Of a stretch of DNA of 64,000 nucleotides, positions 3,923 to 8,690 are shown one piece after another (the first letter of the stretch is position 1; each line of letters begins with the position of its first letter). This DNA comes from an uncultured delta proteobacterium. GTDB taxonomy: Bacteria > Desulfobacterota > Desulfobaccia > Desulfobaccales > 0-14-0-80-60-11. A program made the translations under genes and the position numbers. Below the pieces are notes generated by a model. It ran no database searches, was not told where the DNA came from, and saw only the letters and a list, made by a program, of their open reading frames with translations. The DNA lies in assembly GCA_963812015.1 (NCBI GenBank), contig CAWETI010000002.1, positions 288,001 to 352,000 on the forward strand, given 5' to 3'.

Positions 3923-3961
3923 TGACCTGCCCCCCGTAGTTGTACCAAGTCTTTAAGTTAG
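3923..3961 (-). mobile_element. Isolated IS3-family right end (terminal inverted repeat)
   Basis: TGACCTGCCCCCCGTAGTTGTACCAAGT is the near reverse complement of the IS end at ~13657-13694. Confidence 0.75.
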
Positions 3962-4607
3962 TCTGGGGGTCACAGCAATGGCGTGCGAGGCCCTGCAATA
4001 CATGGAGTCATATAAAGGGGGAGGTGCGGCATTGATTACCCTTCATATCAGTAATCAGGTTTGGAGTCCTGAAAACTGCGGCCAAGGGCCGGGCATGGCG
4101 GCTGCTGGCCGAGGGAGACGAACCTATCCCCCAGGGCCGTTGAAGCTGAGGGTACGCTTGCGCTCTGGGCGCGATAACCGTGGAAACTTTACCCCCACGG
4201 TCGTAGGGACAACGGCAGCCGAAAAACGACGGTGGGGCCAGCCAACAAAGAGCACATATGGATAAAGTATCAAAGCGTTTTGGGAGTACCCAAAAGGGCG
4301 TATACATAGCAGTGATCGACACTGTAGCTTGTAGGCAAAATGTCGACTCTGTCAGAAATAAAAATCAGATTAGTTTCGGTATAAGGCAATATTGGGTGCG
4401 GAATGGCCCAGCCCGAAAAATCAAGAAATTGCTTCAAGGAGGCGGAAAGCATAAACCTTCAGGCAGACCGGGCCAATCGCATTCTGAATTGTGTCTATCG
4501 AGCATGGATTTAAAACGAATATTAAAAACATCGATACGGCTGCCTCCCTGGAATGATGGGATAGATAGCGCCATGTCGGCTGCGTGGGGAGTGCGTTGTA
4601 CGTCCCT

Positions 4608-5360
4608 TTACCACAGGCCGGCCTGCCTCAGGTCTGCGAATGGGCCCCCGAAGTAGCTGCAGTTCCAGAAAGCCGTGTGGGCGATCTCCTCCGCGACTTT
4701 CCGGGCCATCTCCGGATTGTCGGCAAAGACCACGATCCGCGTCCCCTTGTCGGTGTAAGGCAGACGCCCATCTTCATTCGCCACCTTAACCTCTCCCGCC
4801 TGGACGTTCACCGCCCCGGGGACAGTCCCTTTGGCGAATTCCTCCTTGGGGCGGGCATCAACCCATACGGCGGTTTTGTCCTTTGGAAAGATGTATTTAC
4901 AACCTGCCATATCCGTCTGCACGGAATTGCCGTACGCCCTCCAAACCGGCATGCCCATCTGGTAGCGTTTGATGTTAGTGTAGCCCTTCGTGAACAGTTG
5001 TTCGGCCACTCGCTTGACTTTGTGGCAATACGGCCCATTGCAGTAAATTACCATGCCCGCCTTCTTGTCGGGGAGGAGCTGCATCAGTTTATCCATATCC
5101 TTTTCATAGATATGGATGCTGCCGGGGATATGGGCGATGGCATACTCTTTGGATGTGCGCACGTCAACCACGGGTTCGGATTTGTTGGCCAGAATCTGCT
5201 TCAATTCCTCCGTGGAAATCTCTACGCCGACCCCGGCAGGTTCCTTCGGCGCAACTGTCTGTGGCATTTGCGCCGGCGCTGGTGCAGGCACAAGCAGACA
5301 AAGTAGAAATAATAATACTGCTGCCATGGTCCAATTGAATTTTCTCCGATATCCGAACAT
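4608..5360 (-). CDS. Exported tandem rhodanese-domain protein
   Basis: Signal peptide; VDVR..EYAIAHIPGS, IYCNGPYC and a second VDARP..GTVPGAVN domain. Confidence 0.88.
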   Translation of the reverse strand: MFGYRRKFNWTMAAVLLFLLCLLVPAPAPAQMPQTVAPKEPAGVGVEISTEELKQILANKSEPVVDVRTSKEYAIAHIPGSIHIYEKDMDKLMQLLPDKKAGMVIYCNGPYCHKVKRVAEQLFTKGYTNIKRYQMGMPVWRAYGNSVQTDMAGCKYIFPKDKTAVWVDARPKEEFAKGTVPGAVNVQAGEVKVANEDGRLPYTDKGTRIVVFADNPEMARKVAEEIAHTAFWNCSYFGGPFADLRQAGLW

Positions 5361-5644
5361 CGTTATTCCTCCTCAGCATTTTCTCCCCTTGTGATCAGGA
5401 GCCTTTGGCCTCCGGCAACCCTCTTTTCTGCCATTCCGGAAAGCCGTGGGGATCACGGTAAACGTTCTGATAGCCAAGCTTGACAGCCACCCGGGCTGCG
5501 GAGTCGCTCCGGACTCAGGCAAGGCCAGCTCATTAAAAGACCACCTTGCCAGGTTGGACGCAATGAAAAATTAACCACGCCAGGGATATGGCCGATGGCG
5601 AATTACGCCGCCTGCCGCACCCCACAATAAAATAAATTGCACCT

Positions 5645-5956
5645 TCAAACCACCCCCCCACTTCCATGGCGGAAATGTGGTCGCGGCCCCTCGGTCTGGG
5701 CGCTGCCCAGGAGGGACTTCCCCAAGGCCGCGGCAAAGGCCCCCGTATAACTGATTTTGACCCCGGTTTTCTGCTCATAGAGTTGATTGGCGGGCATCAT
5801 GGCTTCGGCCAGGCCCCCGCAGGACCAGACCTGCAAATGATCCACGGCAAACTTCTGCGCCTGGGCCAGGTTCAAGGGCAACGCCGCCCCGACCACCGTC
5901 ATGGCCGCAGTTTTAATAAAGTCTCGTCTGCCGGGATAATCCTGATGTTGTTTCAT
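5645..5956 (-). pseudogene. Truncated Tat-exported ModA-like (oxyanion ABC substrate-binding) protein
   Basis: RRDFIK Tat signal, then an SBP-like N-terminus (LQVWSCGGLAEAM..YEQKTGVKISYTG) that ends after ~90 aa. Confidence 0.6.
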
Positions 5957-6334
5957 TCCTTCTCCTTGCTTGGTTGTCTGACAATCACTGCCATTAATAC
6001 TCCTTTGTGGTTTAGTGTAGCCTCACCTTAACAAGCCAAAGCAAGGGAAGACGTGACCTGCTGATCCCGGAAATGGACCATGTCGATGGCCCGTTCAAGG
6101 AAACCACGAAGGTTTTGTCCATCTGGGCGATGGGCCGACCATTGCGGGCAGTCTTCTTCCATCGTGGCGCAGCACTAGGCAAGCGCGCCGCAACGCAGAA
6201 ATATCAAAATTAATCAGGTAGTTATTGAATTAGAGACCACAGGTTGGATGGGATTAACAGGGATAGTAACTTGGGGAGGTCTTACCTTACAGAAGGAAAC
6301 GCCGGACTTGTGCAGCTAATCCGAAGGAAACCTC

Positions 6335-6478
6335 GATCCCAGGTGATCCGCCCCACCCCTTACCAGTCTGGATACTAGCAAGAGCCTTACCAAGGCTCTG
6401 CGGTCGCCTGAGCTTCAGGATTTCACCTTAATGGGAATAAACGGCCGATACACCCGGAACCACCTCCTTTTCTAAAGT
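6335..6478 (-). ncRNA. Structured RNA / 12-codon leader element, copy B (sORF 6453-6415)
   Basis: Promoter TTGAAT-17-TACAAT (6514-6486), AAAGGAGGTG, GTG..TGA, hairpins and a terminal stem; homologous to 6700-6838. Confidence 0.6.
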
Positions 6479-6699
6479 TCGCTTCATTGTAGGGTGATAG
6501 GATATGCCATTCAACAATTTTCTTGTCTGCTCATCAGCCAACCTGGTTCCTCCCTCCCCGTGAAAAGGAAGGCATTTGAACAGCCACCCTCAGGCTGGTT
6601 GCATAACTGTCCCAAAACCCGATGGCAGGGGGAAGCCTATAACCCTTTGTGAAATAACTATTGCATTTGTTTGGCACTCGGTTTTATAATGCTTCCCAT

Positions 6700-6838
6700 C
6701 CTCAACAAAGGAGGTGATTCCCAGGTGCTACGTTTGCTCTTCCCCGGTTCCGGCAGATCCTGAACCCAGGTTTACCGAGAGGCCTTGGTAAGGCTCTCGC
6801 CATCAGCCCGACTGAGAACCGCAGGGGCGCCTGGGAGT
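6700..6838 (+). ncRNA. Structured RNA / 12-codon leader element, copy A (sORF 6725-6763)
   Basis: Promoter TTGCAT-18-TATAAT (6661-6690), AAAGGAGGTG, closing stem CCCAGGTGC/GCGCCTGGG, hairpin GCCTT-GGT-AAGGC. Confidence 0.6.
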
Positions 6839-7181
6839 AAAGAAATCTAAGTACGGTTTTCCCCGTTTCATTCCCTTCTTTAACCTCGCCGCCATTCCCT
6901 GCCCTTCTCAGAACGGCAGATTCCAACCTTGGGCCTAAGTCAGACGAGCGCCGCTTTCTGTAGGGCGGGGTATCTGGCAACTGCCAAAATCTGTAGACCA
7001 CCGGAAGCGCCAAGCACAGATCGTTGAAATTTGTTTGCCCGTGGGTTTTAAGGTATGACCAACCTCAACTTGAGGAGGATCTTAGGAGAGAAAAATTCAT
7101 AAGGTTCAACCGGTGCATCCGCGCTAACAAGGCGTCAAGGAGGGAAAAACTCCCGACCTCACCTATTACAATGGAGGATCT

Positions 7182-8417
7182 ATGAAGGATCACGAATCAG
7201 ATCTGGTCCCCAGGCATTTAGGAATGGTATCGCGGCGAGATTTTTTGAAGTTCTGCACCATTGCGGCGGTGGGCATGGGGCTGCCCCTGGGCATGGGAGC
7301 CAAAATCGCCGAAGCAGTTGCCAACCTCAAGCGTCCGCCGGTCATTTGGCTCTCCGGCCAGGAGTGCACCGGCTGTACTGAAACCCTGCTACGCTCCACC
7401 CACCCCACGGTGGAGCAGCTGATCCTCGATCTCATCTCCCTCGATTATCACGAAACGCTGAGCACGCCTTCGGGCCACCTGGCGGAAGAAGCCAGGGCGA
7501 AATCCATTGCGGAAAACCAGGGTAAGTTCATCCTGGTGACGGACGGCTCTATTCCCACCAAGGACGGCGGTATCTACTGCCAGATCGGCGGCCGGCCGGT
7601 GCTGGACATCTTGAGAGAGACCGCCCCCCAGGCCATGGCCGTGATCGCCATCGGCTCCTGTGCCTCTTGGGGCGGCATCCCCTCGGCCTCTCCCAACCCC
7701 ACCGGCGCCGTGTCCACCGCCGAGGCCCTGGGCGGCAAATTTACCGTGATCAATATCCCGGGCTGCCCGCCCAACCCTTATAACTTCCTGTCCACCGTGC
7801 TCTATGTCCTGACCTTCAAAAAACTGCCCGAGCTGGACGATAAGGCCCGGCCCAAATTTGCCTATCGCCGCCTCATCCACGAGGGCTGCGAGCGGCGGGC
7901 GCATTTCGACGCCGGTCGCTTTGCCCTGGAGTTCGGCGACGACGGCCATCGTCGGGGTTGGTGTCTCTACAAACTGGGGTGCAAGGGGCCTGAGACCTAT
8001 AACAACTGCCCCGAGCAACTCTTCGGCGACGTCGGTCCCCGGAGCTGGCCGGTGGGCACCGGCTGCCCCTGCTTCGGCTGCTCCGAGAAGGGCGTGGGCT
8101 TTACCAAGCCCATACCTGAACAGGCCAGCCTGGCGTATTTCACCCCGGCGGGTTTACCCTTGGAGGAGGGTAAAGTCCGGGTAGGGGGCGGGGAGCTGCG
8201 CCTGACTCCGCCCACCGCCTTTGCGCCCATTCAGGCCCCCGAGGGGCATGGCGTTACTACCGCGGCCGTGGGCCTGGCGGCCGGTTTGGCCGGCCTGGCT
8301 GTGGGCGCCGGCGCGGTTGCCGCCATGAAGCTGGGCAAAGAAAAATCGGACCCCGGAGCGGTTCTGTCAAATGAAAGAGGCCGTTGTGCCGGTGGGCCGC
8401 GAGACTTGTGGCGATGA
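7182..8417 (+). CDS. hybO: [NiFe] hydrogenase small subunit (HybO-like, Tat-exported, C-terminal TM anchor)
   Basis: SRRDFLK Tat signal; ECTGC, GSCASWGG, GCPP, WCLYKLGCKGP and CFGC Fe-S motifs. Confidence 0.9.
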   Translation: MKDHESDLVPRHLGMVSRRDFLKFCTIAAVGMGLPLGMGAKIAEAVANLKRPPVIWLSGQECTGCTETLLRSTHPTVEQLILDLISLDYHETLSTPSGHLAEEARAKSIAENQGKFILVTDGSIPTKDGGIYCQIGGRPVLDILRETAPQAMAVIAIGSCASWGGIPSASPNPTGAVSTAEALGGKFTVINIPGCPPNPYNFLSTVLYVLTFKKLPELDDKARPKFAYRRLIHEGCERRAHFDAGRFALEFGDDGHRRGWCLYKLGCKGPETYNNCPEQLFGDVGPRSWPVGTGCPCFGCSEKGVGFTKPIPEQASLAYFTPAGLPLEEGKVRVGGGELRLTPPTAFAPIQAPEGHGVTTAAVGLAAGLAGLAVGAGAVAAMKLGKEKSDPGAVLSNERGRCAGGPRDLWR

Positions 8418-8569
8418 CGCGCCGCTTAAAACCGGTGGCGTTTATGGCGCAACCCCCTTGATTTCCGCTTAAAATCGCCAAGGGACCAGCCATGCAACGG
8501 AACAGAGAGAAAGCCGGCTGGTCCGCTAACGGCTAGGCTTCTATCCCGGATGTACCTTGACATAGTTTT

Positions 8570-8629
8570 GTAGGGGCGCACCCGCGTGTGCGCCCTCAAT
8601 CAGGGCGGACACATGGGTCCGCCCCTACG
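8570..8629. repeat. GTAG-type REP palindromic doublet
   Basis: GTAGGGGCGCACCCGCGTGTGCGCCCT...AGGGCGGACACATGGGTCCGCCCCTAC; related units at ~20917-20966, ~56760 and ~60062. Confidence 0.65.
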
Positions 8630-8690
8630 AAAAGTGTTAAATACTTTTTAAAGGAAAATTTGGGACACGGCACCAGGGGGACGCGGCATT

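What the first reader, a model, noticed from the sequence alone, without database searches (positions are those of the whole stretch)
6316..6850. Divergent pair of homologous structured RNAs, each with a 12-codon ORF, a UGA at the same position and a shared hairpin
Seen: two back-to-back elements (6700-6838 + and 6478-6335 -), each with its own sigma70-like promoter and a strong SD (AAAGGAGGTG). Each has a GTG start, 12 codons (MLRLLFPGSGRS and MYRPFIPIKVKS) and a TGA inside a CCTG..CAGG hairpin. Both share GCCTTGGTAAGGCTCT and a 3' segment (CRCCTGGGA) that pairs back over the start codon. Both frames stay open and in register after the TGA (R-x-ALVRL..RL; 41 and 45 codons). Inference: an unannotated RNA family. 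It could be a leader-peptide regulator, a type-I-toxin-like self-sequestering mRNA, or a UGA-readthrough (SECIS-like) element. The downstream genes are a [NiFe] hydrogenase subunit and a ModA-like gene, so selenium or metal sensing is a speculative possibility.
Basis: partly seen in the sequence, partly recalled or inferred. Interest (0 to 1): 0.8.

Follow-up and report, generated by a model that had tools for sequence, protein, structure and literature searches.

The report
Selenocysteine-sensing leader switch for backup genes
Two back-to-back copies of a tiny upstream gene that ends in the selenocysteine codon belong to a family of RNA leaders placed in front of selenium-uptake genes and selenium-free backup enzymes, and most likely let the ribosome switch those genes off when selenocysteine can be made and on when it cannot.

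Summary
Both elements belong to a family of at least 102 distinct leaders, found in 62 of 68 genomes of the host's family (relatives are titled Desulfobaccales) and 0 of 14 of the sister family. Each has a promoter, strong SD, GTG, a 12-codon uORF, UGA and a bacterial SECIS in the register of this genome's own selenoprotein genes. The frame stays open at least 26 codons past UGA in 101 of 101, ending at the edge of a C-rich, Rho-site-like tract. A G-rich arm can pair with either that tract or the start region. Downstream lie cysteine versions of selenoenzymes (HdrA, MvhD, HdrD-like, FdhA, rhodanese) and selenium-supply genes (yedE, yedF, selD). Best reading: a selenocysteine-sensing attenuator; read-through exposes the tract and shuts the operon, stopping at UGA leaves it masked. 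Sensor role about 0.85; Rho output about 0.6; nothing tested at the bench. No Rfam family or paper found. This scan noted the same family on the genome's duplicate copy, and similar leaders in other genomes.

The parts
6661..6690 (+). sigma70-like promoter of element A (TTGCAT-18-TATAAT)
   Evidence: sequence; below the scan threshold; 92 of 101 family members have TTG..TA...T upstream
6707..6716 (+). Shine-Dalgarno of uORF A
   Evidence: conserved in alignment A2
6725..6763 (+). uORF A: GTG, 12 codons, UGA (putative Sec codon 6761-6763)
   Evidence: family 12 codons in 95 of 102
6780..6796 (+). bacterial SECIS hairpin A, loop G at +24 from UGA
   Evidence: same register as 12 of 15 non-FDH Sec codons of the genome
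6806..6848 (+). G-rich arm A; pairs with start region or with C-rich tract
   Evidence: folding with ribosome masks; swap test
6848..6850 (+). second stop (TAA) of the read-through frame A
6861..6925 (+). C-rich, G-poor tract A (28 C, 8 G), putative Rho utilisation site
   Evidence: family profile; function inferred
7182..8417 (+). [NiFe] hydrogenase small subunit (hydrogenase-2-like); rest of operon missing in this copy, intact at G000:C2 duplicate
6486..6514 (-). sigma70-like promoter of element B (TTGAAT-17-TACAAT)
6461..6470 (-). Shine-Dalgarno of uORF B
6415..6453 (-). uORF B: GTG, 12 codons, UGA (putative Sec codon 6417-6415)
6382..6398 (-). bacterial SECIS hairpin B
6330..6372 (-). G-rich arm B
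6316..6318 (-). second stop (TAG) of the read-through frame B
6253..6317 (-). C-rich tract B (19 C, 12 G; weaker than family mean)
5645..5956 (-). truncated Tat-exported ModA-like substrate-binding protein (SBP_bac_11), 103 of about 290 aa
4608..5360 (-). double rhodanese, Cys form; weakly similar to the Sec rhodanese at G000:C3:238892-238907
   Evidence: E about 2e-5; not recovered at the stricter cut-off

Best explanation
A selenocysteine-sensing transcription attenuator. The leader is translated from the strong SD and GTG. With Sec-tRNA and SelB available, the SECIS recodes UGA, the ribosome runs about 30 more codons through the G-rich arm and stops at the 5' edge of the C-rich tract; the tract is left single-stranded and free of ribosomes, Rho loads and ends transcription before the operon. 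Without Sec-tRNA the ribosome stops at UGA, the arm is not translated and pairs with the tract, Rho cannot load, and selenium-uptake genes and cysteine backup enzymes are transcribed. Pairing of the arm with the start region is the likely untranslated state. Shown from sequence: uORF, UGA, SECIS geometry, open read-through frame, tract, alternative pairings, gene context. Inferred: translation, Sec insertion, Rho action and direction of control. Sensor role alone about 0.85; this output about 0.6.
For: uORF in frame with UGA in 76 of 76 model hits and all 42 non-chance collection hits; short variants lose 3, 6 or 9 nt. 99 of 102 meet the bSECIS consensus and 96 have the loop at +21 to +25 band 22-25, against 21 and 1 of 100 ordinary TGA stops. 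Genome has selA, selB, tRNA-Sec, Sec-type selD, rho and at least 19 Sec codons; 12 of 15 non-FDH ones have G at +24. Read-through frame open at least 26 codons in 101 of 101 (other frames 32 and 60 of 101 at 25 or more), median 32. C 36-42%, G 13-15% at +100 to +160; 1 terminator-like hit among the leaders screened. Arm:tract pairing is cognate-specific (43 of 60, 0 of 10000 permutations; control windows p 0.3-0.8); covariation score 0.261 against 0.162 shuffled and at most 0.178 slid. Downstream HdrA 7 of 7, HdrD-like 7 of 7, FdhA 2 of 2, MvhD 22 of 22 and 21 of 21 motifs are Cys forms; this genome holds Sec forms of each.
Against: No transcription, translation or termination data. RNAalifold on the downstream alignment predicted only the SECIS, not the arm:tract helix; that helix was defined by eye and only 70.9% of cells pair; relatedness inflates such counts. 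The inner arm against +98 to +140 was not significant (p 0.055). At equilibrium a single ribosome at UGA changes little (unpaired C 0.42 against 0.44 free; 0.36 if the whole 5' part is blocked) and a lone ribosome at the second stop gives 0.54 (0.78 if all translated RNA is kept open), so the switch needs co-transcriptional timing. Sec genes also lie downstream: selD 5 of 5 and rhodanese 3 of 31. For the window's own hydrogenase and ModA-like genes no Sec paralog was found. Tract B in the window is only mildly C-rich.
Confidence: 0.6

Rival explanations
1. Same Sec-sensing leader, different output: read-through or bound SelB-GTP-Sec-tRNA changes mRNA stability or downstream translation rather than Rho termination, as in the Salmonella speF leader (RNase G) or the E. 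coli selAB leader (SelB blocks the SD).
For: All sensor evidence holds. speF shows a uORF leader acting through decay (PMC6386406, passages); selAB shows direct SelB control (10.64898/2026.03.03.709296, passages). Equilibrium folding gives only a modest switch.
Against: The first gene starts about 260-570 nt past UGA in most members, far from the hairpin, unlike selAB (3 nt). Direct SelB binding does not explain the in-frame uORF or the fixed second stop at the tract edge.
Confidence: 0.25
2. The elements are genes for small (about 45 aa) selenoproteins that act as peptides and merely head these operons.
For: True SECIS, strong SD, open frame of constant length; weak residue pattern M-x-R-P...K/R-S/T-U.
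Against: 8 of 102 members shift frame between UGA and hairpin yet stay open; codon-position entropy is nearly flat (1.25, 1.13, 1.38); middle residues vary freely; a selenoprotein heading selenium-free backup operons is hard to motivate.
Confidence: 0.07
3. Type-I-toxin-like self-sequestering mRNA or independent small RNA, unrelated to selenium.
For: Own promoter, strong SD, 3' segment pairing over the start codon with compensatory changes.
Against: Peptides are basic and proline-rich, not membrane helices; no terminator after the element; always on the same strand upstream of selenium-linked genes; the three viral-contig pattern hits do not score with the model.
Confidence: 0.03

Closest known systems
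Leader-peptide transcription attenuators of amino-acid operons (trpL, hisL, ivbL; PMC5373646, passages read)
   Same: A short translated uORF whose ribosome position selects between competing RNA structures and reports the supply of one charged tRNA.
   Different: The sensing codon is a stop codon needing SECIS/SelB recoding, so the choice is stop or go; a single codon, not a run; no intrinsic terminator; targets are uptake genes and isoenzymes.
Rho-dependent uORF leaders (Salmonella speF orf34, PMC6386406, passages read; E. coli tnaC recalled)
   Same: Long leader, uORF, C-rich rut-like site, no intrinsic terminator, position of the stop codon matters.
   Different: In speF and tnaC translation protects from Rho; here full read-through is predicted to unmask the site by removing an antisense arm. 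Signal is Sec-tRNA.
E. coli selAB 5'UTR SECIS-like element (as described in 10.64898/2026.03.03.709296, passages read)
   Same: A SECIS-type hairpin in a leader makes expression depend on SelB-GTP-Sec-tRNA.
   Different: selAB has no uORF or UGA and blocks an SD 3 nt away; here the hairpin follows an in-frame UGA hundreds of bases upstream of the gene.
HrsM selenium regulon of Methanococcus maripaludis (PMC11097638, passages read)
   Same: Regulon logic: Cys isoforms of HdrA, hydrogenase subunits and candidate transporters are induced on selenium depletion.
   Different: HrsM is a LysR protein acting on DNA in archaea, with the signal unknown; here the sensor is RNA plus ribosome.

Membership tests
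Bacterial SECIS element | 3-9 nt loop, stem of 4 bp or more, G in first two loop positions, 16-37 nt from UGA, MFE at most -7.5 (model in PMC13188914) | tested here: met
   99 of 102 members against 21 of 100 ordinary TGA stops
Bacterial SECIS element | Host has selA, selB, selC, selD | tested here: met
Bacterial SECIS element | Binds SelB and directs Sec insertion | not testable with these tools
   needs binding or 75Se assay
Classical leader-peptide attenuator | Conserved short uORF with SD upstream of the operon | tested here: met
Classical leader-peptide attenuator | Run of sense codons for the regulated amino acid | tested here: not met
   one UGA only
Classical leader-peptide attenuator | Intrinsic terminator with antiterminator | tested here: not met
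   1 weak hit among leaders screened from +60 to +350; none in the window
Rho-dependent uORF attenuator | C-rich G-poor tract after the uORF and rho in genome | tested here: met
Rho-dependent uORF attenuator | Structure that masks the tract depending on ribosome position | tested here: inconclusive
   swap and covariation tests positive; RNAalifold negative; equilibrium shift modest
Rho-dependent uORF attenuator | Bicyclomycin-sensitive premature termination | not testable with these tools
   bench test
Type I toxin mRNA | Hydrophobic membrane peptide and stand-alone terminated transcript | tested here: not met
   peptides listed; no terminator; antisense RNA not searched
Any Rfam 15 family | Score at gathering threshold | tested here: not met
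   best hit over the elements 17.7 bits against 52.5

The most novel reading that the evidence does not exclude
A bacterial regulon in which stop-codon recoding itself is the sensor: selenocysteine insertion at one UGA in a uORF moves the ribosome through an anti-rut arm and triggers Rho termination, switching the cell between selenium and sulfur versions of its core energy enzymes and its selenium uptake. The leader has been copied in front of at least ten kinds of operon, so it also lists candidate selenium transporters and unrecognised selenium-linked enzymes.
Probability: 0.6. Interest if true: 0.9.

Novelty: new variant of a known kind. Interest (0 to 1): 0.82.

Why it matters
How microbes sense selenium and swap selenoenzymes for cysteine isoforms is stated as unknown even for the best-studied case, and no dedicated selenium transporter is established (PMC11097638, passages). 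This leader offers a compact, testable sensor: three point changes (UGA, loop G, second stop) predict opposite outputs. It extends attenuation to the 21st amino acid, supports YedE/YedF and double-cubane reductases as selenium-starvation genes, and could serve as a genetic reporter of Sec-tRNA supply.

Tried and rejected
Rfam: nothing near threshold. tRNA-Thr anticodon mimic: the loop matches a tRNA-Thr arm in the genome but varies GGT/GGC/GGA and sits in SECIS register; rejected. DNA operator palindrome: orientation and distance to UGA are fixed and G-U pairs are tolerated; rejected. First selenoprotein screen by motif was too noisy and an unfiltered blast timed out; replaced. Anti-SD pairing of the tract with the leader's SD: not cognate-specific (p 0.98). 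Generic uORF-UGA-SECIS scan of 30 yedE loci from the phylum gave 5 hits, none a convincing member. Outside the family, 1 of 146 other genomes sampled held a clear copy (G140); 12 weaker hits were inspected and are chance. Sequencing runs: no RNA holder listed, which is no evidence either way. NCBIfam scan of the read-through peptide gave no family; not relied on. Literature: 10 searches found no Sec-uORF attenuator; the library lacks most subscription papers, and supplements were not read (those of bioRxiv are closed), so a listing in a selenoproteome or RNA-motif supplement cannot be excluded.

Full report
Observation. The two elements are as described: SD, GTG, 12 codons, TGA, a shared hairpin, and frames of 41 and 45 codons if TGA is read through. 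Each folds better than shuffles (z -2.56). Rfam has no match near threshold. The stretch 4294-8359 is a near-identical copy of G000:C2:806001-810066, where the hydrogenase operon is intact; in the window it breaks off after the small subunit. Three further distinct copies lie elsewhere in the genome.

Family. An exact pattern found 59 stretches in the genome collection. I dropped 17 that lacked an SD and in-frame GTG; all 17 came from unrelated taxa by their titles, and the 42 kept are mostly titled Desulfobaccales, Syntrophobacterales or Deltaproteobacteria. A covariance model from 48 distinct sequences hit 62 of 68 genomes of the host's family (a few of these only weakly) and 0 of 14 of the sister family, although 12 of those 14 have selA. 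In a phylum sample one genome outside the family held a clear copy. Of 80 loci re-searched, 79 matches were returned; 3 reverse-strand echoes were dropped, and the 76 left plus the 48 gave 102 distinct elements. I fetched only part of the order-wide hits, weighted to the divergent ones. A metagenome scan added 41 strong matches among 83 loci tested, with the same layout in those I could see (output partly cut); they are not in the counts.

The uORF is translated-looking. Start GTG in 99 of 102; length 12 codons in 95, 10 in 4, 9 in 1, 11 in 1, and one cut by a contig end. For the 48 pattern hits frame and TGA were selection criteria; for the 76 model hits they were not, and all kept both. The last two residues are K/R-S/T in 94 of 102; that a basic residue at -2 favours termination at UGA is recalled, not checked. 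A promoter-like TTG..TA...T lies upstream in 92 of 101, mostly 30-34 nt before GTG.

The hairpin is a SECIS. The genome has tRNA-Sec, selA, selB and a Sec-type selD. Nineteen other Sec codons were identified by alignment of TGA to cysteine in homologs; 12 of the 15 outside formate dehydrogenases have G at +24 in a hairpin loop, the position of the element's loop G. Against the consensus model quoted in PMC13188914 (passages), 99 of 102 elements pass and 96 have the loop starting at +22 to +25; of 100 ordinary TGA stops 21 pass and 1 has that position. The stem shows compensatory changes.

Read-through matters but the peptide does not. The frame after UGA is open for at least 26 codons in 101 of 101 elements with enough sequence, median 32, against 32 and 60 of 101 reaching 25 in the other frames; the same holds for 61 representatives under 85% identity. 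Eight members have small indels between UGA and hairpin and stay open. The second stop falls near +96, at the edge of a tract with C 36-42% and G 13-15% (+100 to +160), preceded by an arm with 49% G. Rho is encoded, and a terminator screen gave one weak hit. C-rich, unstructured sites as Rho entry points are described in PMC6386406 (passages).

Two pairings compete for the arm. With the start region: 50 of 60 cognate pairs better than expected, 0 of 5000 permutations. With the distal tract: 43 of 60, 0 of 10000; three control window pairs gave p 0.31, 0.82, 0.38. Pair counts on ten arm:tract pairs gave covariation 0.261 against 0.162 shuffled and 0.178 for the best slid version. Against this: RNAalifold did not predict the helix, I defined it by eye, kin share changes, and the inner arm test gave p 0.055. 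Folding with ribosome masks in 61 representatives gave tract C unpaired 0.36 with everything to UGA+15 blocked and 0.78 with everything to the second stop blocked, but 0.42 and 0.54 with single footprints, against 0.44 free. The switch is therefore plausible only as a co-transcriptional one.

The regulon points to selenium starvation. First recognised motif downstream of the 102 elements: MauE/DoxX or its rhodanese partner 28, MvhD 14, YedF 13 (one is not the first gene), double-cubane reductase 8, YedE 8, TIM-barrel gene (followed by selD or a mutase-like gene) 7, HdrA 7, HdrD-like 2, and one each of FdhA, hydrogenase small and large subunit, ModA-like and transglutaminase-like; 10 had no motif, 3 of them on short contigs. 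At known Sec positions HdrA 7 of 7, HdrD-like 7 of 7, FdhA 2 of 2, MvhD 22 of 22 and 21 of 21, and rhodanese 28 of 31 carry cysteine; this genome encodes Sec forms of all five, and none of its seven leaders directly precedes those. Exceptions: selD is Sec-type in 5 of 5, and 3 Sec rhodaneses lie within 2.6 kb, the two inspected about 2 kb away as third genes. YedE and YedF are predicted selenium genes (PMC9312934, passages) and double-cubane proteins co-occur with SelD (10.1101/2022.07.06.499078, passages). For the window's own hydrogenase and truncated ModA-like gene I found no Sec paralog.

Mechanism and rivals. Most likely a Sec-sensing attenuator with Rho output (0.6); next, the same sensor with decay or translation output (0.25); small selenoprotein genes (0.07); toxin-like or independent RNA (0.03). 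Direction of control is inferred from gene content and by analogy with the Methanococcus HrsM regulon (PMC11097638, passages).

Novelty. It works like a leader-peptide attenuator (PMC5373646, passages) but fails two defining features, the codon run and the intrinsic terminator. The nearest selenium precedent is the E. coli selAB leader (passages of a paper citing it), which has no uORF. Ten literature searches, and term searches in two reviews of prokaryotic selenoproteins (0 occurrences of 'leader') and PMC13582414, showed no such element; most subscription papers and all supplements were unseen. After I had reached this reading (stated), the scan's notes showed the same conclusion for the duplicate copy in this genome and similar UGA/SECIS leaders in other genomes. 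These are unchecked AI notes and not independent support; I did not test whether those leaders are homologous to this family.

Noticed in passing
window 4294-8359: Near-identical copy of G000:C2:806001-810066; the window copy ends inside the 3' end of the hydrogenase small-subunit gene, so it is a partial duplication or an assembly artefact (genome contamination estimate 5.7%).
   Followed up: partly
window 5406-5956 (-): The ModA-like gene is cut at about 90 residues and followed by a remnant similar to the 3' end of the Sec rhodanese gene at G000:C3:238781-238920; full-length relatives occur in 3 of 82 other genomes of the order.
   Followed up: partly
G000:C3:238892-238907 (-): Rhodanese with two in-frame UGA five codons apart (YUxxxxU), apparently sharing one SECIS; also in L168 and L178.
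   Followed up: no
L136 (G444:C29:4000-16000), L142, L279: Four leaders within 12 kb in one genome, and divergent back-to-back pairs like the window's in three other contigs: selenium-starvation islands.
   Followed up: partly
L193 (G140:C183): A full copy in a genome of another family, near the end of a short contig; transfer or mis-binning not resolved.
   Followed up: no
G000:C2:1057000-1060800 (-): Leader precedes a TIM-barrel gene, Sec-type selD, a phosphoglycerate-mutase-like gene and a nucleotidyltransferase-like gene; the TIM-barrel gene follows the leader in 7 of 102 cases.
   Followed up: no
window 8566-8633, 800-874, 3923-3972: Short repeats with many copies across the genome (the first, about 60 nt and palindromic, has more than 25 blast hits).
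   Followed up: no
window 9403 to at least 12000: ABC/MCE-looking transporter genes 99.3% identical to G000:C3:1655097-1657696; another recent duplication.
   Followed up: no
L083, L153, L136: Leaders in front of a transglutaminase-like protein, an alginate-export-type porin and a redoxin: candidates for unrecognised selenium-linked genes.
   Followed up: no
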